Below are positions 25,330-64,000 of a DNA stretch of 64,000 nucleotides, one piece after another. The position numbers and the translations under genes were made by a program. This DNA is from Eledone cirrhosa. Its lineage: Eukaryota. Location: contig OZ024752.1 in NCBI GenBank assembly GCA_964016885.1, positions 28,272,001 through 28,336,000 on the forward strand, in the 5' to 3' direction. How positions within the stretch are numbered: position 1 is the stretch's first letter; each line of letters opens with the position of its first letter. The notes under the pieces are model-generated. The model was not told where the DNA came from. It made no database searches and saw only the letters and a program-made list of their open reading frames with translations.

Positions 25330-25519
25330 AATAACTGTTTCTACTTTTGGCACAAGGCCAGCAATTACCCAGTGCATTACTGGTACTTTATTTTATCGAC
25401 CCCGTAAGGATGAAAGGCAAAGTCAACCTCGGCGGGATTTGAACTCAGATCGTAAAGGGACGTAACTATGCTGGAAAGCATGGCGTCCGACCCTCTACCG
25501 ATACTGCCAATCCACCGCC
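25330..25519 (-). mobile_element. tRNA-derived SINE, near-consensus, with TSD
   Basis: Flanked by cagaaaataac on both sides. Confidence 0.88.
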
Positions 25520-26417: not shown

Positions 26418-26608
26418 TAATAATTGTTTCTACTTTAGGGACAAGGCCAGCAATTACCCAGTACATTACTGGTACTTTATTTTATCGACCCCGTAAGGAT
26501 GAAAGGCAAAGTTAACCTCGGCGGGATTTGAACTCAGACTGTAAAGGGACGTAACTATGCTAGAAAGCATGGCGTCCAACCCTCTACCGATACTGCCAAT
26601 TCACCGCC
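26418..26608 (-). mobile_element. tRNA-derived SINE
   Basis: Same family; flanked by tatatatatagtaataat. Confidence 0.85.
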
Positions 26609-32539: not shown

Positions 32540-33782
32540 CCCATAAATTATGCTTCGATTAGTACAAAACTATGTTTCATTCTTTAAGTTAACAAGCATT
32601 TCCCTAATTCCCATAAATACAGTAAAATTCTAAACTCTAAGAATGTTAAGCTATCATACTCCACTGCACCAAACCTTGAAGCATACATAAAAAATTTTTA
32701 ACTTAAAGCAATTATTAAACAACACTACAAAACAAAATATTTTAGAAACAGATGGGCATAACGTAATATCAGCCTCCCAACCACCAAATGGGAGACGGGT
32801 ATTACACAACCCACCTGAACTGTTATCCCAACCTATCCATGGAACACCTGCTACCCACAACAAAAACTGCAACTGCCACCTACCCGAAAGTTGCCCATTG
32901 AAGAATAAATGCCTAGAGTCCAACATTGTTTATCAATGCACTGTCGAATCGAACGACCAGAAATGGTATTACATCGGGTCTACCACTACCTCCTTTAAAT
33001 CTCGCTGGTATCATAATCGATTTTCGATTAAACATCCTGAACACCGTCTTGTAACCACGCTCGCCAATAAGACCTGGCAACTCCGTGAATGCAACCGGCA
33101 GTTCACTTTGAAATGGGATAAATTATCCAGCGCTAGTGCATATTGGAGTGGATTGAATTACTGCAGATTATGCAACCTTGAACTCTTTTATATCTTGAAA
33201 TCCAAAAACAACTTACTAAATGACAGAATCGAACGATCGTTAAACTGCAACCATAAACTGAAGGCTAAATTTTCTCACTATAAAATAACTTAACATTCGA
33301 ACCCGAGAATACAACATCACTTTCTCGCTAACTAATTTCATTCAATAACTACTTCCTAACTATACCCCCCCCCCCACACACACACACACTGCAGGGCAGT
33401 ACCCTGCTTATCATTATAATTGGATACTTGAGTACGATCAGCAGACTACAACTATTAACTCGGTGTATACCACCATTCGTTCCCCTTCTCGTAGCTTTTC
33501 TCTGTCCCCTCTCTCTTTCTCTTTCTTTCTCTATCTCCCTTCCTCTCCCTCTATCCCTCTCTCTCTCTCTCGCCTTCTGTCTCCCCCCCCCCTCCACATC
33601 TATCAACCTGCTCTCTGTGGCAATAAATAATTCCAAACTTGACAATATCAACACAATGCCTAAGTTGTCACTTTGAGAGTGATCAGTATAATAAAACCAC
33701 TTGTTGGACCCTATGACAACATTTAGATTAAGCTATCTGTATTCTTCAAACCACTCTCTCCCATTTCTCCGATCCCTACATA

Positions 33783-34070: not shown

Positions 34071-34107
<37 letters not shown>

Positions 34108-34109
<2 letters not shown>

Positions 34110-34220
34110 CGAAGGAAATGTGGTAAGCAACCAGGTGGACCGTAACGCACCAAAGTACTCAATACTTAGGGTAGTAGAGTGGGTAATAGGAACGAGTAGG
34201 ACCCCTGGGTCCTACTCGTT

Positions 34221-34225
<5 letters not shown>
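34108..34225. mobile_element. Miniature head-to-head PLE terminal insertion in (TA)n
   Basis: 34108-34205 is the reverse complement of 42508-42605; 19-bp hairpin 34186-34204/34207-34225. Confidence 0.75.
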
Positions 34226-34263
<38 letters not shown>

Positions 34264-36099: not shown

Positions 36100-37783
36100 T
36101 TTCTTAGGCTAAAAACAGAGATAAGATACCGGAAGAACAATCAATATTTCATACAAAGAATAAATACGGAAAGTCATACCTAAAAAGTATCTGGAAATAT
36201 TCATCCCTGGCCAAATCAAGAGTATAATATCGTATATATATATAGACTCTTTCCACACACACCTCAAAGCCAATTGGAAAAGATATCTAGACTTTATCCT
36301 ATGGCAAGAAGACATGAACTCACTTACTATGTTTAAAAACATGATAAACAACATAGATAATAACATACAATTCACAATGGAATCCAATCCCAAGGAATTA
36401 ACCTTCTTGGATAGTCTCATCTCTGTAATAGACGGGAAATTAGATACAGATATATTCTATAAACCCACAGATTCCAAGCAATACCTCTTTTTCACATCAA
36501 GTCACCCAAAACATACAAAACTTAACATTCCTTACAATTTGGCCAAACGTATATGTACCATAGTATCAGATCCAACTAAACGGGAGCAAAGACTAAAGGA
36601 ACTAAAAGACACCCTTATCTTAAGAGCCTTTCCACTTGAAATAATCAACAATGGAATAGACAGGGCAAAACACCTAAATCCCCATCAACTTAACAATCCA
36701 AAACAGAAAACCACACTCAACACCCTGCCATATGTATCCACTTTCAACCCCAGAAATACCGAAATGTTTGATCACCTACACAAAAACCTCCCCATCCTAC
36801 TTAAAGATGTAAAAATGAAGTCTATTCTTGAAACACACAAGATCCTTAAAAGTAAAAGACAACCCAAATCACTAAAACGCATTCTCACTGGACCAAATAT
36901 ACCCAAACCAATCCTCAACCCTACAGTTACCAAATGTGGTAGAACAAACTGTGGAACGTGCCTCTACCTCACTGAAGGACAAAAATTTACATTTAAAGAT
37001 GGCCAAACATTTACAGTAAAAAACAATTTCACCTGCAACTCGGAGAACTTGATTTACGCAATAACTTGCGGTGGGTGAAAACACAACTACATAGGACAGA
37101 CGGGCGCCTCATTACGCAAAAGAATGACCATCTACCGCCAACAAATCCGGGACGCTAACACAAGAAAAATCCCCTTGAGCAGCCATATTGCGAACTGCGC
37201 AGGAATGACACTACCCAACTTTAAAATCTTCCCCTTCTACAAGTGCTCAGATTCGTTCACACAGCAACAAAGAATAAACAAAGAAAATCTATTCCTTAAC
37301 AAATTTAAACCAAAACTAAACGGGTTATCACCCCAATAGAATTGTCATAAAATATAAACTCACATACGCACGGAGTGACAGATATATGTGTTTGTATGTG
37401 TGCATGTATATAATTATCACTACTATTAAAGACCAGAGACCAATTCTGTAGAATCAGGTTTATTCGTTGACAGACCATGACTTTGTGTGACCAACACATC
37501 CATGTTAAACCCTGCACGTGCACACACATATATCTATATATATATATATGCGCACACAGAATTCACCACTGTCGGTTGCGGGGCCCAATCTACATGAAGA
37601 ACTCAATGTGATCAGAATGACTTGTATTTTAATTTCACTGTCCTAACTTCTTATATTATGGAAAAAATATATGTGTATGTATGTATATATATATATTTGG
37701 AGGCCATTTCTCTATGTGTGTGGGTGTATGTATGTATATGTGTGTGTGTGTGTGTGTATGTGTGTGCATGTGGATGTATGTAT

Positions 37784-37816
<33 letters not shown>

Positions 37817-37942
37817 GCATGTGGATGTATGTATTGTGTGTGCGTGTGTGTGTGTGTGTGTGTATGTGTGTATCTGGATGTATGCGTATGTGTATATATA
37901 TATATGTGTGTGTGTGTATATATATATGTGTGTGTATGTGTG

Positions 37943-37975
<33 letters not shown>

Positions 37976-38218
37976 TTGTATGTGTGTATGTATATATATG
38001 TGTGTGTGTGTGTATGTGTGGGTGTGTGTGTATATATATATATGTGTATGTATATGTGTGTATATATGTGTATGTACACACATATATATATATATGTGTG
38101 TGTGTGTGTATGTATGTGTGTATCTGGATGTATGTGTATGTATATATATGTGTGTGTATGTGTGTATATATGTGTGTGTGTTTGTGTGTATGTATATGTA
38201 TGTGTGTATGTATGTGTG

Positions 38219-38293
<75 letters not shown>

Positions 38294-38841
38294 ATGCATA
38301 TGTATATGTATGTATGTGTGAATGAAGGTATGTGTGTATATATAGGTGTAAGTGCACTAAATCCCTTTCTATCACTCTCCCCTCTCCTACCGACCACAGG
38401 GAGATATATGTATGTATATTGCTTCCACCTCATCACTGACCAGCAGCTGGCCATCTGGCCATTGCTAAATCTGACCTTTATAAAATAACCCACACCCCCA
38501 AATAACTCCTCATTCACTACCAGAAAGTCACACAGCAGTCAACTTGCTGCTACCAAGATGAAAACTGCTATGAAAACCCACAATGAATTTTATACTTGAA
38601 TTTTCAAATCTCAAATTTTAACTCTTCTTATTATTAATTTTTCTTAATATTAATCAACATTTGAAAAGATGGCTTTTGCAGACCCATCGAAACCGGTCAT
38701 TTTTTATACCCTTTATTATTTCCTTACCTTATAAAATTATATGTTTTTTCACAAAAAAGTATTCTGTCTCTTATATATTCCATGTGCCATTACCAACCTC
38801 AATTTTCTCTATAACCTTCGTTTTGTGTAGAAAATTACACT

Positions 38842-38846
<5 letters not shown>
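36100..38846 (+). mobile_element. Penelope-like element remnant B (RT C-terminus + CxxxxCxxC + GIY-YIG; Neptune-like)
   Basis: IQFTMESNPKELTFLD, IFYKPTDSKQYLFFTSSHPKH, KCGRTNCGTC, FTCNSENLIYAITCGG*KHNYIGQT..LRKRM; long microsatellite-containing 3' region. Confidence 0.88.
38656..38703 (+). ncRNA. Minimal type I hammerhead, U3-A8 core variant (PLE B)
   Basis: aacat TTGAAAA gatgg..ccatc GAAA ccgg TC atttt; identical core in all three copies. Confidence 0.6.
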
Positions 38847-38872
<26 letters not shown>

Positions 38873-40249: not shown

Positions 40250-40308
<59 letters not shown>

Positions 40309-40318
40309 AACAAGTAAG

Positions 40319-40412
40319 ACCCCGACGGCTGAGCTCAAGCCGTTTCGACGGCTAATTCTGTACTGAATGAAAATTTATTCTGGTATTTAAATAGCCGAAC
40401 TTATCAAGGGGT
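40319..40412 (-). ncRNA. Type I hammerhead ribozyme, U3-A8 core variant, stable stem III (PLE C)
   Basis: Minus: acccc UUGAUAA guu-cggcua..uagccg-uc GAAA cggc-u-uga-gc-uca-gccg UC ggggu. Confidence 0.75.
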
Positions 40413-40798
40413 AATTCCATATATGGTCAAAGAGATAATCACCAGGATTGGTCACATCACAAGTTAGTAGTAAATCTGTGATGGCAAGTTGGTGGGGGAA
40501 GGGGTAGCTAAACCTGTCGGTAGGAGAAAAAGGGAGAGGGGGTGGAGTAGACCCATTCATGCGTTGGTAGTGCCAGCTACAGCTGGGTGTGAGGTCAAAG
40601 AGGATACTGGGGAGGGGGAGGGGGAGGAGGACGAAACGGTGAGTAGAACAATGAAAGGTAAAACTATAAAAGGTACTGAGAGAGAAAAAATAAGCAAAAT
40701 CTGGTTACTAAGACATAAGTCTCTCGCTATTGCTAGGCTAAAGAAATACATAAATAAATAAATAAACAAATAAGTGAATAAAAGAATAGATAAATACA

Positions 40799-40829
<31 letters not shown>

Positions 40830-42418
40830 ATGTAGAATAAAAAAATAAATAATAATGATAGAAATAAACTAGGTGGGACGGAAATAAAGGGACCCTTATA
40901 CGAGGTATAAGTGCGTGTATCGTACGGTGACGGGTCAACAAAGGGGGAGCCCAGAATACTAAAGAGACTACCACGAAAATAATAAAGGTTTCTACCCCAA
41001 TCACAGGGCCAGCAACCACCCAGTGCAAGAAAGTAAACTAGTACGAGAATATAATTCAGGGTCCCGCAAAAAAATACTAGTGCTAACTCTAAAGGTACCG
41101 CCACGAAACAAAAAGTCTTATACAAGCTACATGAACGATCGTACGAAGTAAAAGTAAAGAACGGAAAAATAATACAGGAACAAGTACGAGAAAAAGACGA
41201 CGACAAAGAAAGGGAACTGGGGTAGAAGGACTAGGGAGGGATGGGGGAAGGAGGAAATATAGAGGAAGCGATAAAAGAATGTAAAAGAAGATCTTACGTC
41301 TCCATTGGCAAGCAGGGGTTACCCATTACAAAATAGGCAAGTGGGGTGTTATAGCCCTAGTCTACCCCCCCCCCCGGTCATTATGGGGTTTGAGGGCGAG
41401 GTAAGTCCTACGTAATCGGTGTTTACATGTAGTAACCAGTTCATCTTTCTTGTTTAGGAGTTGGTCCGTCGAAAACAGCATTTGTAATGTTTCCTCCGAG
41501 CATAAATTGCACGGACGGCGTCCTCCCGTGTAAGAGTTAGCTCTGGACAGTAATTTCCAAGTGAGATCATAGTTGATGTTGTTGTCCTTGAGGTCCCATA
41601 TGTGGCCCGAAAGTGTAGTGGCGTGACGCCGGGCCGGGTTTCGGAAGGTATGTCTGTGTTGGTATAGCCGGGTCTTGAAGTCGCATGCGGTTAATCCTAT
41701 ATAGGCTTTGTTGGAGGTGTCGGTGCTCACGTTGCACTGGTAGATCACATTACGGTCTCTGCATCTGTTGTCGAGGGGGCAACTGGATCTATCAGGACAG
41801 TTGCACCTCCTGGTCGGCTCTCCACTGCTATTTAGGTTGTTTCTTCCATCGAGGTTGAGTTTTTTGTTGTTGGAGGAGACGATGTTTTGTGCGAAGTTAG
41901 GTGTAGTGTTGTAAGAGAGTTTGATGGTATTTTTGTTAATTATGTTGTGGTAGCGGTGTTGTGGTGGGAAGTGTTTTTCAATGAGCCTAAAGAAAATTTT
42001 CCCGATGGGAGTTGTCACCTTTTTTAAATTTATTTATCTATTCTTTTATTCACTTATTTGTTTATTTATTTATTTATTTATGTATTTCTTTAGCCTAGCA
42101 ATAGCGAGAGACTTATGTCTTAGTAACTAGATTTTGCTAATTTTTTCTCTCTCAGTACCTTTTATAGTTTTACCTTTCATTGTTCTACTCACCGTTTCGA
42201 CCTCCTCCCCCTCCCCCTCCCCAGTATCCTCTTTGACCTCATACCCAGCTGTAGCTGGCACTACCAACGCATGAATGGGTCTACTCCACCCCCTCTCCCT
42301 TTTTCTCCTACCGGCAGGTTTAGCTACCCCTTCCCCCACCAACTTGCCATCACAGATTTACTACTAACTTGTGATGTGACCAATCCTGGTGATTATCTCT
42401 TTGACCATATATGGAATT

Positions 42419-42512
42419 ATCCCTTGATAAGTTCGGCTATTTAAATACCAGAATAAATTTTCATTCAGTACAGAATTAGCCATCGAAACGGCTTGAGCTC
42501 AGCCGTCGGGGT
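42419..42512 (+). ncRNA. Type I hammerhead ribozyme, U3-A8 core variant (inverted copy)
   Basis: atccc TTGATAA gttcggcta..tagccatc GAAA cggcttgagctcagccg TC ggggt. Confidence 0.72.
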
Positions 42513-42705
42513 CTTACTTGTTCCTATTACCCACTCTACTACCCTAAGTATTGAGTACTTTGGTGCGTTATGGTCCACCTGGTTCCTTACCACATTTCCT
42601 TCGTTATATATATATATATATATTGTATAGCTATGTATGTATGTGTGTGTGTATGTATACATATATATATGTGTGTGTGTATGTGTGTGTGTGTGTGTGT
42701 GTGTG

Positions 42706-43004: not shown

Positions 43005-44757
<1,753 letters not shown>

Positions 44758-49970: not shown

Positions 49971-50515
49971 TACATGCATCTATATATATCTGTAAATATA
50001 TATATATATATATGCATACATACATGCATCTATATATATCTGTATATATATATATATATATATATATGCATACATACATGCATCTATATATATCTGTATA
50101 TATATATATATATTTCGTTTCTGAATTTGTTTAGCAAGATTCTTTATCTGAAAACATGTGTTGAAACCGATATTGTTATACTTTGGGAGGGTCATGTTGC
50201 CAATAAGAAACACACGCACCAGTGCTTTCACTTCAATTTATTATAATAAATTGATAAATTTAGGAATTTATAAATTTCCGGTTGGTTGGTTCCACAACCA
50301 GATGGTTGTTTATATATTGTCAAAGTTCTTTCGTCACACATTCTGTGACCTCTTCAGTGACTGGGGATTCTTTTCTTTGTTTTGTGTGCCTCTCCTTTGT
50401 TCTGTCCTACGCCATCTTGTATGTATGCTTATATATATATATATATGCATACATACGTGCATCTATATATATCTGTATATATATATATATGCACACATAC
50501 ATGCATCTATATATA

Positions 50516-50819: not shown

Positions 50820-53800
50820 ACAAACACTCACACACAGACTCATATGTTTATCATAACTTTTCCATAAAGAAGTAAGATCACCACCACCACCAACAACCAC
50901 CTCTTTCTCTATGTATCTAGCTATCTATCTGTCTATCAATTTATCTATCTCTCAATCCTCAGTTCAAATCTACCTGATGTGGGTTTGTTTTGTATTTCAA
51001 CTTTCACTGATTCATACAGTAAATAACTGAGCTTAAAACGTGCAATTCATTGTATTGTCTCCAGTAATGTCTGCCTTGGTAATAAAATACTTTTTCTATT
51101 TCTTCTTTCTAGAGATGCCTTGCTCTATGATGCCAATGCTGGAATTGGACAACAGGACCCAGATTCCTCAGAGTATGGCTATGGCGAGATATTTGGCCAG
51201 GGAATTTAGTAAGGAACTTCCTTCGTTGCGTGCATATTTCTAAAATTACCATATTTCTTTAGAATTATATTTTTCTTAACTTTCATTAGTTAGTGTTTTC
51301 CCTACATTTAAATTCTGGTCATCACCAGAAAATCGATTGTTAATTTAAGATATAATCAGACACTATTATTCGGTGGATTGGCAGTATCGGTAGAGCGTCG
51401 GACACCATGCTTTGAAGCATAGAGTTACGGCCCTTTACGGTCTGAGTTAAAATACCGCCGAGGTTAACTTTGCCTTTTCATCCTTACGGGGTCGATAAAT
51501 TAAAGTACCAGTAACGTACTGGAGTCGATTTATCGACTTTCACCTCCCCCCAAATTACTGGCCTTGTGCCTATACTAGAAATCATTATTATTCGTTGTGG
51601 ATTGGTAGTATCGGTAGAGGATCGGACGCCATGCTTTGCAGCAAAGAGTTACTGCCCTTTATGGTCTGAGTTCAAATCCCGCCGAGGTTAACTTTGCCTT
51701 TCATCCTTAGGGGGGGTCGATAAAATAAAGTACTAGTAATACACTGGGATAATTGCTGGCCTTGTGCCAAAAGTAGAAACAATTATTATTCGTTGATTGG
51801 CAGTATCGGTAGAGCGTCGGACAACATGCTTTACGGCCCTATATGTTCTGGATTCAAATCTCGCCGAGGTTGGCTTTGCCTTGCATCTTTACGGAGTCGA
51901 TAAAATAAAATACCAGAAATGTACTGTAGTCGATTTAATCGACTTCCCCCTCCTCCCAAATTGCTGGCCTTGTTCCTGTAGTAGAACTCATTATTATTAT
52001 GGTTGGTCCTGTTATTGCTATTATTATACGATTTTTCCAGGTTTCCATGGCAAGAACAACATGGAGATGGCCAGAGTTGACTTCATCTCAGACTGTTTCT
52101 ACGATATTTTGGATGATTACATGAGAATGTATCAAGACGGTAACTACAGAATGATGGTACGCATTTAATGGTTTATCAATAATTTGGCTCTAGATTTTCA
52201 TCTGAGTTTAAAACTTTCGGCTAATTCTGTGTTTTACTGGTTCACAGACTACATCTAATCAATGGGATTTCTAATTCTTGAGGACCCAATTATTAACCTG
52301 GTATATACATATACATTAAAATACATATATATTAAAACAATCATTGAAAACATTGAAAAATCTAGGTTTTGCTAATGAAATGGGGAGGTTGGAGGAAGAG
52401 GTGAAGGGGGCTCCTCTGTGTATGTATATATATACAAGGTGTGCCAAAAAATGTATACACACTTTGATTACCTGTACAGGCAATATTTCTTAGAATACTG
52501 TTGAAATGTGTATATATATTTGGAGACACCTTGTGTGTGTGTATATATATATATATATCTTATACATATATATATATATATCTTATACATATTTTATTAT
52601 ATTTCAGTTCCAGAGATCCAGAGATATGATGAACAACTCAGTAAGTGCTTTACATTTCGTTTATATATTCATTATTGCGTTGTCTGTTGAGAAATCCGTA
52701 ACATTCCGTCAGTATGTGATATTGATAGTAATTTTACTAGTAATATTTGTTTCTACTTTTGGCACAAGGCCTGCAATTATCCTAGTGTATTACTGGTACT
52801 TTATTTTATCGACCCCGTAAGGATGAAAGGCAAAGTTAACCTCGGCGGGATTTGAACTCAGTCCGTAAAGGGACGTAACTGTGCTGCAAAGCATGGCGTC
52901 CGACCCTCCACCGATACTGCCAATCCACTGTAATATTAATATTTAACTACACATATTAATATGAGTGCTATCTGAATACTATCTGACAATTGTTACTACT
53001 CACAGAAAAAGTAGCATGAAAATATTTTACCCAAAGACTCGACGCTACTCGATTCAGTCCGGCATTCTCTACACCTTAGACCGCGTAATTGAAAAACCAA
53101 TGGAAACATTGTTCCTTTGTCGGATATGATGATCGGCACCTTTATATATTTAATAGTTTTCGAGTGAAATTATCTCACATAGCAACCCATCTCACTTGGA
53201 ATATATTCTTATCATCTTAAGATACTACATACAATTTGAATAGAAACAAATAAGAAAGGTGAAGCAGTATATTTGAGAACCATTACTCTAAATTTCAAAA
53301 ACATTTTACTTCGATAGTTTTTTTTCTATAGAGCAAAGTTGTTTATGTTTATCCCTCTAAACATGCCACTCGTCAGCTGATGATTAGAATGAAACATTGT
53401 TGATATCGGCGATGAGTGTTCCAATGGTTCAGTCATGAAATTTATGTGAAGGTTGCTGAGTAATCCACAGACACGTACCACATTAATGTAATTCTCAAAA
53501 CGATTCGTCGACATGATACAATGGTTGGCAAGTCTAGCCTTTTGAATTACTGGTACAGTCTATCTAACGGTCTTCTTACCTATTTCTGTCTGTCTAGATT
53601 CACTGGGGTCTTACCCAGGGAACTATGTATCTTCCATCATTTTATCTAAGTATCGGTTTTTGTATGCATTTGGCAATATCGGTAGAGGATCTGACGCCAT
53701 GCTTTGCAAGCAAAGAGTTACGGCTCTTTATGGTCTGAGTTCAAATCCCGCCGGGGTTAACTTTGAATTTCATCCTTACGGGGTCGATAAAATAAAATAC

Positions 53801-56745: not shown

Positions 56746-56777
<32 letters not shown>

Positions 56778-56778
<1 letters not shown>

Positions 56779-56972
56779 GAAAGATTCAGGACCCCGTCGG
56801 CTGAGCTCCTATCGTTTCAACAGCTAGATCCGAATAGTTCGTATCTAGCCGTTGAAACAGCAGGAGCTCAGCCGTCGGGGTCCTGAATTTTTCATATTAC
56901 CCACACTACTACCCCAACTATCGTGTACTCTCGTGAGTAATGGTTTAACTGGTTTCTACCGCTTTCATTCTG
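56778..56972. mobile_element. Head-to-head PLE terminal fragment (family related to PLE C) with two inverted hammerhead 3' halves
   Basis: ttcaggaccccgtcggctgagctcct..ctagatccgaa / ttcgtatctag..GAAAcagcaggagctcagccGTCggggtcctgaa. Confidence 0.65.
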
Positions 56973-57040
56973 ATATATATATATATATAAAATAAAATTA
57001 AATAAAAAAGTCAAATGTTTAAAATTTAGCTTCGTTTATT

Positions 57041-60604: not shown

Positions 60605-63213
60605 TTAATTGTACTATTTATTGTTATGAAAATACAAAAACCTTTAGCAGTTATATGTATTTTTTATACAAACCCTAAATAGTGGTAGGCAGTAATGTAT
60701 TACTAGCTTATTACCAGTAAGTTAAGTAGCTCAATGTAAAAACACCAGATGATTTACAGAGCAGTTATATGAAATATAAGAATCAAAGAACTGTTCAAAA
60801 CATTATTGTGCTTACAGCTGTTTCCTCCAAACCGAGGTTTGGATTCTTCGGAGCAATTTATTAATGAATGGACAGTTATATGACCTCCTTTTCAGCCAAG
60901 AGACATACCGATACATATGCAAATATTGTGGGTCAACATTCATTACAGCATTTAGAGTGGCAGTACACACTTCGAGATTACATTTATAATAAAAGGTACA
61001 ATCAAAAATCAAAAATACAGGTTAAAATACAACATGAAGATAAGCGGTTATATAGTGCAAATGTTATATGTGTGGCAAGCACGTGCGTCTTGTTTATATA
61101 GTGTGGCAGAGAGATATGTGTGGTAGGAGCACTTAGGTAGGTAAAGAAGAGTGTTAGGTTGGTTGATCTGGTGGGAAATTCTTTATATGATTGTTATAGT
61201 CTGTGTGTGGAGAAAAGATATAAGCATTAAAAATAGTGCAAGCTTTAAAAGTATTAAACGTATTGGAGATGCACAGCGAAGGGATGACAAGGACCTCATG
61301 TACTTCGACATTTTCATGGTCAGGGGAGTGTATTCTTCGATTATATGCCCCTCACATAATCCACGGCAATTCTATATTGAGCGTTTGACAATCCAGTTAG
61401 AGAATCGTAGTCCGATGTTCTTTAGTTCAATACAGGAGGCTGTTACGTTTCGCGAAACGACATTGAATACTACCCGGAAGTGTGTGTGTGGCTAAGGGGA
61501 GTTAATGCATGAGGGGAGGTAACTCCGGGGTTTCTATACCTAGCTATTGAAATGTCTCAATATAGACCCTAATTTCTATGGTTATGCGCAACTTCCAAAA
61601 GATTCCTAAAGCATAAAGTGTTTTAACTATAAGTAGTTTATTAAGTTGTGCTGAAGGTGTTCGTATTATTATGGTGAATTAACCCCCATCCTAGGGTGCT
61701 CCAAATGAATATTATAGGTGATGAGCGAGGATTCTAAATTAATGATCCCTGTGGTTGTACCCTACTCATAGGACCAGGCGCGGTGATTGCAGAATCACTT
61801 CAAGACACAATGATCTCTGGTAAGTTCTGGGTCATCGCTTGCTACATTGGATGTCGAAAGGTAATCATCATCAGGGCCGGCCAGAGGTCAATCCGCAGTC
61901 CTCATGACCCCACTCTGACCATCAAATCATCCATATAAGTACAACCCGCACGGCAGTTGCAATACATTCATTCTCTGCACTCAGCGTCCTGGTCCTACTG
62001 CTCAACAGCGTAACTAGATTAAATCGTTTTTCATCTGTCTAAGGAAGGCACTTCCTCCGCACAACACCACCAAAACTAATCAATTCATGCTTAAATTACC
62101 TATAGAGCGGTGTAGTGCAGTTCAGGTGGGTGGATGTTGTCACCCCTAACGTAGAGGCATAAATGGGTATTCTCCCAGCGAAGGGTTCCGGAGGGATGTC
62201 GTAGTTTGTGTTATATTAGATCAGTTAGTGTTGTGTATGTGGTATAAGGTGTGCCCCTGGTGTTTGATGCTAGATGTGGTGTTTGGTTCAAGTCCGACAT
62301 TGCTATATATTGGGCTTAAAGTTTTGGAAGGAATGTCTGAAGCGGTGCTGGCAAGTTGCAAACACCTCAGATTTTTTGTTAAGTAGGTTACGGTTGGAGA
62401 AGATAATGTTGTGGGTCTCTAGTATACAGAGGTTACAGAATTTATTAGGTGGTTTGTACGAAGTCGCGCTGCCTATCACTTCCCATTTGAGTGTGTATGG
62501 TTTATTTTTAGTTTTTAGATAGTGTATGTAGCTAGATAGTGAGGTGGAGTTGGCTAGGCTGTGCTTTTTGAACGAGTGGATGTGCGAATTATATCTGATT
62601 TTGAAGCTGTTAGAAGTGGAGCCTACATAGGTTTCTGAAGAGTTGCTAGTTGTGACGGTGCATGAGTATATGATATCCTTGGTTAGGCATTTTTTATCCA
62701 AAGGGCAGGTTCTATTAGCTCTACAGTTACAATTATCCTGTGTGTTAGTCTGCTGGTTATAATGCAGTGCAGAAGTCTGGGTGGTAGCTATAGGATTTTG
62801 GACATTCGGGTTGTCAACCCCGGTGTTATTTCTTATACTAGTGTTATTTCTATTGTTACTGCCGTTACTATGGTTGCTTGCTACAGAGGTATTTAGAAGG
62901 TTTGGATTCTGTTGTGATTTCGTTTGTTGGAAGTAAGAATTAATTTTATTTTTATTGCTGCTAGCTATGTGGTATGCTAAGTTAGGCGTCGTAGAGTATG
63001 AGATTTTAATAGTGTTTTTGTTTAAAAGGTTGTGGTACTTGTGTCCTAGAGGGAAATGTTTATCTAGTAGTGAGAAGAAAGCCCTAGGTATGTTGGTGGA
63101 GACATTTAGGTTGAAAGGAGGGTTGAAAAATGTATTATTTCTTCTTCTATTTTTGCTTTTAGTGTTTGGTGTGTTGTTTCTTCTTACGGCACCACAGTAG
63201 TTTCCGTGGTAAT
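60602..63213 (-). mobile_element. Penelope-like element remnant E (GIY-YIG, Naiad-like) with long 3' region
   Basis: FFNPPFNLNVSTNI..HFPLGHKY..IKISYSTTPN, CNCRANRTCPL, IIYSCTV..YVGST..FKIRY, CNLCILE..LLNKKSE. The left boundary is approximate. Confidence 0.82.
60809..60855 (-). ncRNA. Minimal type I hammerhead (PLE E), U4C core change
   Basis: Minus: ugcu CCGAAGA a-uccaaacc-uc-gguuugga-g GAAA cagcug UA agca. Confidence 0.6.
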
Positions 63214-64000
63214 ATTAAACTCTATCAATATTAAACTCTATCTCTAATGGGGTATCCAATAGAATCGCTAGCCTGTCCTATGAGGCAAACATATTTAGCA
63301 AAGACTCACAATATTAAAATCAAACATTAGCTAGATCCGGCCATAATATAGAAATTGAGTTCCTACCTAAGAAAACACATAGCTACAACATCATCTCGCA
63401 CAATATGTCCATGAGGAAACCTAATAATAGGAATAGCAACCACAAGTACACCAAAGCGGAGGGTGCCACCGGAAGTAACCATTACCACGGAAACTACTGT
63501 GGTGCCGTAAGAAGAAACAACACACCAAACACTAAAAGCAAAAATAGAAGAAGAAATAATACATTTTTCAACCCTCCTTTCAACCTAAATGTCTCCACCA
63601 ACATACCTAGGGCTTTCTTCTCACTACTAGATAAAAACTTCCCTCTAGGACACAAGTACCACAACCTTTTAAACAAAGACACTATTAAAATCTCATACTC
63701 TACGACGCCTAACTTAGCATACCACATAGCTAGCAGCAATAAAAATAAAATTAATTCTTACTTCCAACAAACGAAATCACAATAGGATCCAAACCTTCTA
63801 AATACCTCTGTAGCAAGCAACCATAGTAACGGCAGTAACAATAGAAATAACACTAGTATAAGAAATAACACCGGGGTTGACAACCCGAATGTCCAAAATC
63901 CTATAGCTACCACCCAGACTTCTGCACTGCATTATAACCAGCAGACTAACACACAGGATAATTGTAACTGTAGAGCTAATAGAACCTGCCCTTTGGATAA
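63214..64000 (+). mobile_element. Second, inverted copy of PLE E running off the window
   Basis: 63481-64000 is the near-exact reverse complement of 62694-63213. Confidence 0.85.

What the first reader, a model, noticed from the sequence alone, without database searches (positions are those of the whole stretch)
34108..34225. Mini insertion whose 5' end coincides exactly with the predicted ribozyme cleavage site
Seen: 34108-34205 is the minus-strand copy of the PLE C-type terminus, starting precisely at GGGGT, the first bases after GUC in the 42419-42512 hammerhead. It then folds back into a 19-bp inverted copy. Inference: this is a fossil cDNA of the 3' self-cleavage product, i.e. genomic evidence that this hammerhead family cut in vivo and that the roughly 100-nt cleaved RNA was retrotransposed.
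Basis: partly seen in the sequence, partly recalled or inferred. Interest (0 to 1): 0.72.

Follow-up and report, generated by a model that had tools for sequence, protein, structure and literature searches.

The report
Penelope stubs start at ribozyme cut
This 118-base insert is one of about 200 stubs of a Penelope-type jumping gene in this animal genome that begin exactly at the predicted cut site of the element's hammerhead RNA, likely because the ribozyme cut the RNA in the cell before it was copied into DNA, although most stubs begin about 41 bases further up and lineages with a mismatched ribozyme core make such stubs just as often.

Summary
Observation confirmed: 34108-34205 starts at the base after GUC (+1); one extra base and a 19-bp inverted arm follow. 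The two-armed shape is the family's standard insertion (13,111 anchor copies). Most copies start 35-47 nt upstream (53 of 90; likely the transcription start), but there is a sharp minor peak at +1: 212 genome-wide hits against 38-56 at four neighbouring positions; 15 of 31 untemplated junctions; and one insertion (L206) with three cDNA ends at +1. So an RNA 5' end at the scissile bond is likely, in about 2% of copies. Corrections: the RNA was not about 100 nt (it runs on into the ORF; +98 is likely an internal RT start), and the mini belongs to another lineage than the 42419 ribozyme. Against self-cleavage: lineages with a C3·A8 core mismatch, this copy's included, give +1 ends as often (16/48 vs 27/90); a hairpin base may reach +1; a second family shows no clear peak; no RNA data. 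The scan noted the two-armed form and the upstream peak before on other DNA, not this +1 peak. Hammerhead cleavage about 57%.

The parts
34108..34205 (-). Direct arm of the mini insertion: +1..+98 of the element, from the predicted hammerhead cut site to the far reverse-transcription start (end of the 'tail')
   Evidence: 94 of 98 identical to 42508-42605; lineage S3 (C7, C12, T94, G78)
34206..34206 (.). One untemplated base between the arms
   Evidence: 1-7 nt inserts are typical of the class
34207..34225 (+). Inverted arm: +2..+20, from the near reverse-transcription start (+19/+20) back to the cut site
   Evidence: the same outer end is seen in 157 of 310 arms examined (142 go on into the tail, 11 other)
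34071..34107 (.). (TA)n target, tail side
34223..34260 (.). (TA)n target, inverted-arm side (overlaps the last bases of the arm)
42419..42512 (+). Type I hammerhead of the related longer element; U3-A8 core variant; predicted cut 42507/42508; lineage S1
42467..42467 (+). Position -41, centre of the family's main 5'-end peak; likely transcription start (inferred)
   Evidence: the same register in the related family at 56747-56982 (read by eye)
42020..42605 (+). Tailed arm of the longer insertion (pseudo-LTR, hammerhead, tail to +98)
40304..42033 (-). Other arm of the longer insertion: endonuclease end of the ORF (41362-42033), 3' region, second hammerhead copy (40412-40319, +1 at 40323), ending at +19/+20

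Best explanation
The insert is a complete two-armed Penelope-like (PLE) insertion in a (TA)n tract whose arms both end at the hammerhead's predicted scissile bond, likely because both were reverse-transcribed from an RNA whose 5' end had been made by hammerhead cleavage. Shown: structure, copy numbers, the peak at +1, the coupling of the arms, and the continuation of the element past +98 into the ORF. Inferred: the element's protein nicks both strands of the TA tract and primes one cDNA at +98 and one at +19/+20 of an RNA several kb long (two internal starts, as for PAc, PMC11167929). Each cDNA runs to the RNA's 5' end and gains a few untemplated bases, and the two ends are joined. Most RNAs likely start at about -41, inside stem II, and so lack the ribozyme's 5' half; they give the common 200-bp stubs. 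Read-through RNAs carry the whole ribozyme; a small share would be cut and give the +1 stubs, about 2% of copies. For this copy's lineage (C3·A8 core) the cut would have to be slow and protein-assisted, or made in trans by the 5' half of another lineage's RNA.
For: Peak: 212 genome-wide hits for a start at +1 vs 53 (+2), 56 (-1), 38 (-2), 43 (-3); 4 of 30 sampled +1 hits were intact copies with point changes, against 5-7 of 30 for each neighbour. Of the first 100 of 813 short fold-backs, 31 have untemplated inserts; in these the direct arm starts at +1 in 15, the inverted arm ends at +1 in 12, both in 11, none starts at -1, -3 or -4, and 14 of the 15 inserts differ, so the events are independent. 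Copies joined straight to the TA run: 7 at +1, 4 over -1..-8 (27 loci, by eye). Coupling: with the direct arm at +1 the inverted arm ends at +1 or later in 12 of 19 fold-backs (by eye) vs 2 of 62 in the unbiased set. L206 holds three cDNA ends at +1 (inverted arm; unit +1..+246 reaching into the ORF; second unit from +1), while the analogous tandem L369 restarts at -41/-42. Untemplated bases on running off a template end and ribozyme-set 5' junctions are established for R2 (PMC3774820). The hammerhead is conserved, with a compensatory stem II pair, in a related family (one copy).
Against: No lineage effect: U3-A8 lineages are 16 of 48 +1 copies vs 27 of 90 background (p = 0.70); 11 of the 15 untemplated +1 junctions come from lineages whose long copies have C3·A8, a state expected to cleave poorly (PMC9901934; single 3/8 mutants abolish PAc cleavage). 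An S1 excess among symmetric minis (26 of 49 vs 20 of 78, p = 0.002) did not hold in the broader set. Stem III may extend to -1/+1 (pairing probability 0.37-0.60), so hairpin arrest predicts nearly the same position. +1 begins a G4 run, and G5 variants occur. A second PLE family with a canonical minimal hammerhead shows no clear +1 peak (5 of 40 loci at +1, 8 at -4/-5; by eye). In PAc no RNA-seq reads begin or end at the hammerhead site, and cleavage is not needed in vitro. In the unbiased sample only 2 of 90 copies start exactly at +1 (8 of 90 within -2..+2).
Confidence: 0.57

Rival explanations
1. The RNA was uncut. Reverse transcriptase stops or falls off after copying the G4 run at the foot of the stem III hairpin, and a molecule folded that way stops both cDNAs at the same place.
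For: Stem III is paired from -2 (0.91) and partly at -1/+1 (0.37-0.60). It needs no catalytic core, which fits the equal rate in all lineages and the lack of a clear peak in the family without hairpin or G run. Recurrent 38-nt GTC-to-GTC deletions show that RT jumps at the hairpin foot.
Against: Those jumps map to -3, not +1. No untemplated junction starts at -1, -3 or -4. Independent stalls at a rate of about 2% would not give 12 of 19 coupled arms or three ends in L206.
Confidence: 0.2
2. The RNA did end at +1, but the end was made otherwise: a minor transcription start at the C/G step, 5'-to-3' decay halted by the G run or by bound protein, or a protein nuclease.
For: Explains the peak, untemplated bases, coupling and L206 as well as cleavage does, and is blind to the core state. 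C(-1)G(+1) fits the pyrimidine-purine start rule (recalled).
Against: It must hit the scissile bond by chance; several other pyrimidine-purine steps between -41 and +1 show no such peak among untemplated junctions. An extra G (cap trace) precedes +1 in only 2 of 15, though it is also rare at -41 (6 of 43), so this does not decide.
Confidence: 0.16
3. The minis are DNA-level products: longer palindromic insertions collapsed, or longer cDNA ends were trimmed to the CC/GG microhomology during end joining, or the inverted arm arose by self-priming (as proposed in PMC3846280).
For: 67 of 100 short fold-backs are joined at microhomologies, many at CC/GG or in stem III; several inserts look copied from nearby arm sequence (by eye).
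Against: Copies joined directly to the TA run, with no CC/GG partner, also peak at +1. Symmetric junctions at other G+C-rich positions are rare. Many inverted arms reach further upstream than their direct arm, which simple fold-back copying cannot give. L206 is a tandem, not a collapse.
Confidence: 0.07

Closest known systems
EN+ Penelope-like element insertions with inverted 5'-truncated copy and one-sided tail (PMC8557442, passages and section 11; PMC3846280, passages)
   Same: Two opposed arms, a tail on one side only, (TA)n target, hammerhead in the pseudo-LTR, C-terminal GIY-YIG-like endonuclease. Motifs read by eye fit the Hydra clade (CxCX5C linker, CxxC and CxH around E and N, RW[R/K], DKS for DKT).
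   Different: Tail of 79 nt rather than 30-40; most copies are stubs of about 200 bp; a subset starts exactly at the ribozyme cut site, which the passages read do not describe.
PAc, Poseidon PLE of Anolis carolinensis (PMC11167929, parts 1-2 of 4)
   Same: Two internal RT starts downstream of the hammerhead that delimit the tail; both DNA strands cut and extended; AT-rich targets.
   Different: There no RNA-seq reads at the hammerhead site and no need of cleavage in vitro; here genomic copies mark that site. The ORF starts at +191, not inside the ribozyme.
R2 elements with 5' HDV-like ribozyme (PMC3774820, abstract and passages)
   Same: Genomic 5' junctions, with untemplated bases and microhomologies, record where a ribozyme cut the template.
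   Different: In R2 cleavage sets the end of full-length copies and is shown biochemically; here it is a side class of about 2%, a hammerhead, and untested.
Metazoan non-LTR retrozymes (PMC7229834, passages; bioRxiv 10.64898/2026.07.22.740005, part 1 of 5)
   Same: Type I hammerheads related to PLE pseudo-LTRs; cut RNAs thought to be copied by PLE machinery.
   Different: Retrozymes are tandem non-coding units from cut site to cut site, with circular RNAs; this insert is a stub of a coding element and holds only the three bases' worth of ribozyme helix that lie after the cut (stem I 3' strand).

Membership tests
EN+ Penelope-like element | ORF with PLE-type RT and C-terminal GIY-YIG endonuclease | tested here: inconclusive
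   Broken ORFs in long copies show RT-like (DIESYY, LYRDD) and GIY-YIG-like (VIY..AYIG) motifs by eye; Pfam and PDB searches gave no significant hit; 35 mostly unnamed homologues at 32-50% identity; no tree built
EN+ Penelope-like element | Pseudo-LTR with inverted 5'-truncated copy and one-sided tail | tested here: met
   62 of 90 unbiased copies are fold-backs; fixed ends at +19/+20 and +98; window element 40304-42605
EN+ Penelope-like element | Type I hammerhead in the pseudo-LTR | tested here: met
   1,706 complete copies match the pattern
Hydra clade of PLEs | CxCX5C linker, no CCHH, CxxC and CxH motifs, RWK and DKT motifs, (TA)n targets | tested here: inconclusive
   Motifs fit by eye with RWR and DKS variants; phylogenetic placement not done
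Active type I hammerhead ribozyme | Three helices around the conserved core | tested here: met
   MFE gives stems I-III; one compensatory stem II pair in a related family, single copy
Active type I hammerhead ribozyme | Watson-Crick pair at positions 3 and 8 | tested here: not met
   Met (U3-A8) in the 42419 copy and lineages S1, S2; not met (C3·A8) in 14 of 15 long copies of the mini's lineage S3 and in 42 of 84 complete family copies held
Active type I hammerhead ribozyme | Self-cleavage after N17 giving a 5'-OH product | not testable with these tools
   Only the indirect genomic peak; no RNA run listed
Non-LTR retrozyme | Tandem non-coding units running from cut site to cut site | tested here: not met
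   Single stub; the element continues into an ORF at +191

The most novel reading that the evidence does not exclude
The 13,000 copies act as a fossil 5'-RACE library showing that a Penelope-element hammerhead cuts its RNA in the germline and that the cut RNA is reused as template, up to three times in one insertion; and since two thirds of the +1 copies come from lineages with a mismatched core, the cut is made in trans or with help from the element's protein.
Probability: 0.35. Interest if true: 0.75.

Novelty: new variant of a known kind. Interest (0 to 1): 0.52.

Why it matters
[quoted passage not shown] A sharp genomic peak at the scissile bond would be in vivo evidence of cleavage and gives its rough share among insertions (about 2%), which suggests that cleavage happens but is a side route. 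The census can be repeated in any PLE-rich assembly without RNA. Four searches found no paper reporting PLE copies that start at the hammerhead site; supplements were not read, Lunse 2017 (PMC5785218) is not held, and most subscription papers are outside the library.

Tried and rejected
Best-hit DNA search: 0 of 29 other top copies start at +1 (40 of 868 candidates scored); too small for a 2% class. RNA evidence: no RNA holder listed. Laying four unlabelled contig runs of one study on 34108-34226 showed low-depth cover of the inverted arm in 2 of 4 runs and no piece spanning the stretch: not used as evidence. Rfam, Pfam and PDB gave nothing for the ribozyme or the PLE proteins. Cap-G test at -41: G in 6 of 43, T in 26: inconclusive, so 'transcription start' stays an inference; a splice acceptor or nuclease cut at -41 was considered and not excluded. 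The S1 enrichment was dropped. The automatic classifier misfiles arms shorter than 7 nt; only its share of intact copies is used. Coupling of long arms: only 3 of 8 long copies had a second arm within 1.5 kb, inconclusive. CpG decay as source of the T before +1: rare in intact copies (by eye) and excluded by the pattern. The five patterns are not exactly equivalent (the +2 pattern excludes T at -2 and undercounts, by my estimate up to about 90), so the p-value (7e-48) overstates precision. No paper with a direct rate for a natural C3·A8 core was found.

Full report
Numbering: +1 is the first G after the hammerhead's GUC (window 42508; 34205 on the minus strand in the mini); -1 is the C before it.

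1. The observation. 34108-34205 read on the minus strand is +1..+98 of the repeat end that also lies at 42508-42605 (94 of 98 identical). One extra base (34206) follows, then +2..+20 in inverted orientation (34207-34225), and both sides are (TA)n. 42419-42512 folds into stems I, II and III around a core with U3-A8 in place of C3-G8 and a predicted cut at 42507/42508. U3-A8 is a known natural variant (PMC4209133, parts 1-2 of 4; PMC3088659, passages).

2. What the family is. The window lies in a 3.0-Gb animal assembly. A 30-base anchor (+8..+37) matches 13,111 places. The longer insertion at 40304-42605 has the same two ends as the mini: one arm ends at +19/+20, the other at +98, both in (TA)n. 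Its minus arm carries the endonuclease end of an ORF, 91% identical to that of long copy L276, whose upstream frame has RT-like motifs. Six of 419 tail ends examined run on past +98 with one shared sequence that leads to an ATG at +191 and a PLE-like N-terminus. So +98 and +19/+20 are not RNA ends but likely two internal RT starts, as shown for PAc, whose protein also cuts and extends both DNA strands (PMC11167929, parts 1-2 of 4). The inverted arm plus one-sided tail is the published PLE structure (PMC8557442, passages; PMC3846280, passages). Motifs read by eye fit the Hydra clade (section 11); Pfam and PDB gave no hit and no tree was built.

3. In the first 90 of the 13,111 anchor matches (contig order, blind to the 5' end), 62 are fold-backs and 53 direct arms start at -35..-47; 8 hold the complete ribozyme; 8 start within -2..+2, 2 of them exactly at +1 (two apparent +1 calls were intact copies with a fifth G, and one +2 call a lost G, and were removed by eye). 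The main peak centres on the A at -41 (42467), inside the 3' strand of stem II, in an initiator-like TYAGT (consensus recalled), and the related family at 56747-56982 folds back in the same register. Penelope has an internal promoter (PMC2377424, passages), so -41 is likely the transcription start; the cap-G test was inconclusive. RNAs starting there lack the ribozyme's 5' half.

4. The +1 peak. Parallel genome-wide patterns (start position preceded by two non-reference bases) give 212 hits for +1, 53 for +2, 56 for -1, 38 for -2 and 43 for -3. Of 30 loci sampled per pattern, 4 (+1) and 5-7 (others) are intact copies with point changes. The patterns are not exactly equivalent, and +2 is undercounted. 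Most -1 and -2 hits are microhomology joins and many -3 hits are a recurrent 38-nt deletion from the -41 class. A cleaner set: 813 fold-backs have arms within 40 nt; all of the first 100 were fetched and parsed. 67 are microhomology joins, 2 blunt, 31 carry inserts. Among the 31 the direct arm starts at +1 in 15, at +2..+7 in 13 (several of these are point changes scored as inserts), upstream of +1 in 3; the inverted arm ends at +1 in 12; both in 11; 14 of the 15 inserts differ. Single-armed copies that abut the TA run: 7 at +1, 3 at +2, 4 over -1..-8, 1 at +5, 11 at the TA microhomology +8/+9, 1 unclear (27 loci, by eye). 161 loci fold back within 8 nt of the site. About 200-300 copies, about 2%, start at +1.

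5. Template end or polymerase stop. With the direct arm at +1, the inverted arm ends at +1 or later in 12 of 19 fold-backs (by eye), against 2 of 62 in the unbiased set (p = 5e-8). Locus L206 has three ends at +1 in one insertion: the inverted arm, a unit from +1 to +246 that reaches into the ORF, and a second unit from +1; the analogous tandem L369 restarts at -41/-42 (1 such case each among 241 and 34 junctions screened). This is what one expects if each cDNA runs to the 5' end of the RNA, adds a few bases and jumps or is joined, as for R2 (PMC3774820, abstract and passages). It also shows that an RNA starting at +1 was at least 246 nt long.

6. Results against self-cleavage. Tail markers split the family into lineages: S1 and S2 have U3-A8 (9 of 11 and 13 of 13 long copies), S3, S4 and S5 have C3·A8 (14 of 15, 4 of 4, 4 of 4). 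The mini is S3, so it does not derive from the 42419 ribozyme's lineage. U3-A8 lineages make up 16 of 48 +1 copies and 27 of 90 background copies (p = 0.70; the 48 pool several selections). An S1 excess among symmetric minis (26 of 49 vs 20 of 78; 49 of 50 listed loci parsed) was not borne out. Single changes at 3 or 8 give low activity (PMC9901934, passages, where even most double changes do; PAc mutants), so C3·A8 should cut poorly in cis. Second, stem III is paired from -2 and partly at -1/+1 (0.37-0.60), and +1 opens a G4 run, so a stall would fall close to the same place. Third, another PLE family in the window (minimal hammerhead at 50362-50322, canonical core, no hairpin, no G run) shows 5 of 40 TA-flanked loci at +1 and 8 at -4/-5 (first 100 of 130 rows, by eye): no clear peak, which fits either the poor monomer activity of minimal hammerheads or the stall rival. 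Fourth, PAc RNA-seq shows no reads at the site.

7. Verdict. An RNA 5' end at +1 is the best reading of the peak, the inserts, the coupling and L206 (about 73% with the second rival); that the hammerhead made it rests on the exact coincidence with the scissile bond (57%), and then needs slow protein-assisted cleavage, as PAc's ribozyme needs protein, or cleavage in trans of the -41 RNA, which is a ready half-ribozyme (inference). RT arrest 20%, another source of the RNA end 16%, DNA-level origin 7%.

8. Novelty. The insertion type is known. That genomic copies mark the cut site of a PLE hammerhead was not found in four searches; reviews call its in vivo activity open (PMC7761336, passages); in vivo cleavage is accepted for retrozymes (PMC7229834, passages; bioRxiv 10.64898/2026.07.22.740005, part 1 of 5). 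No supplements were read, and they may hold junction data. Earlier notes of this scan describe two-armed inserts in this genome and an upstream start peak in other genomes; none listed reports a peak at the cut site of a coding PLE family, and a look-up by sequence found nothing.

Noticed in passing
window 42467; family-wide -35..-47: Main 5'-end peak of the family (53 of 90 copies) lies inside hammerhead stem II, in an initiator-like motif; arms ending there often carry A tails of up to 17 nt (L051, L068). The likely promoter splits the ribozyme, so only read-through RNA holds it whole.
   Followed up: partly
L206 (G000:C2:42127850-42128482): One insertion with three cDNA ends at +1 and a template jump from +1 to about +246 in the ORF.
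   Followed up: yes
L367, L368, L372, L377, L382, L387, L393 and others: Recurrent precise 38-nt deletion between two GTC triplets (-40..-38 and -3..-1) in the direct arm; looks like an RT jump at the foot of stem III.
   Followed up: partly
family-wide: About half of the complete hammerhead copies (42 of 84 held) carry a C3·A8 mismatch fixed in three successful lineages; U3-A8 is shared with the related family and is likely ancestral.
   Followed up: partly
window 50111-50430 (minus): A second abundant (TA)n-inserted family with a canonical minimal hammerhead (50362-50322) and two fixed ends at +153 and +212 (59-nt tail); many two-armed copies in the loci held.
   Followed up: partly
window 56747-56982 and 19008-19169: Diverged relatives (about 78%) of the same repeat end; the first is a fold-back centred at -41, the second has arms in a rearranged, partly deleted order.
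   Followed up: partly
window 32691-33293, 36164-37078, 43141-44756, 62303-63785: Further broken PLE-like ORF pieces (GIY-YIG-like ends; a 520-bp inverted duplication at 62694-64000).
   Followed up: no
window 2056-4431 and 37297-38872: A 1.7-kb repeat present twice in opposite orientation, with a 697-bp inverted repeat at 2115-2811/3677-4373.
   Followed up: no
window 9195-9383, 12947-13136, 14431-14620, 25330-25519, 26419-26608, 52742-52928 and more: A 190-bp SINE-like repeat in more than ten copies.
   Followed up: no
window 6865-6948: 84-bp near-perfect palindrome next to a TA-rich array; similar sequence flanks several fetched loci.
   Followed up: no
window 199-1942 (minus) and 5266-6300 (minus): Pieces of LINE-type reverse transcriptases (Pfam RVT_1 hit for 710-1279).
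   Followed up: no
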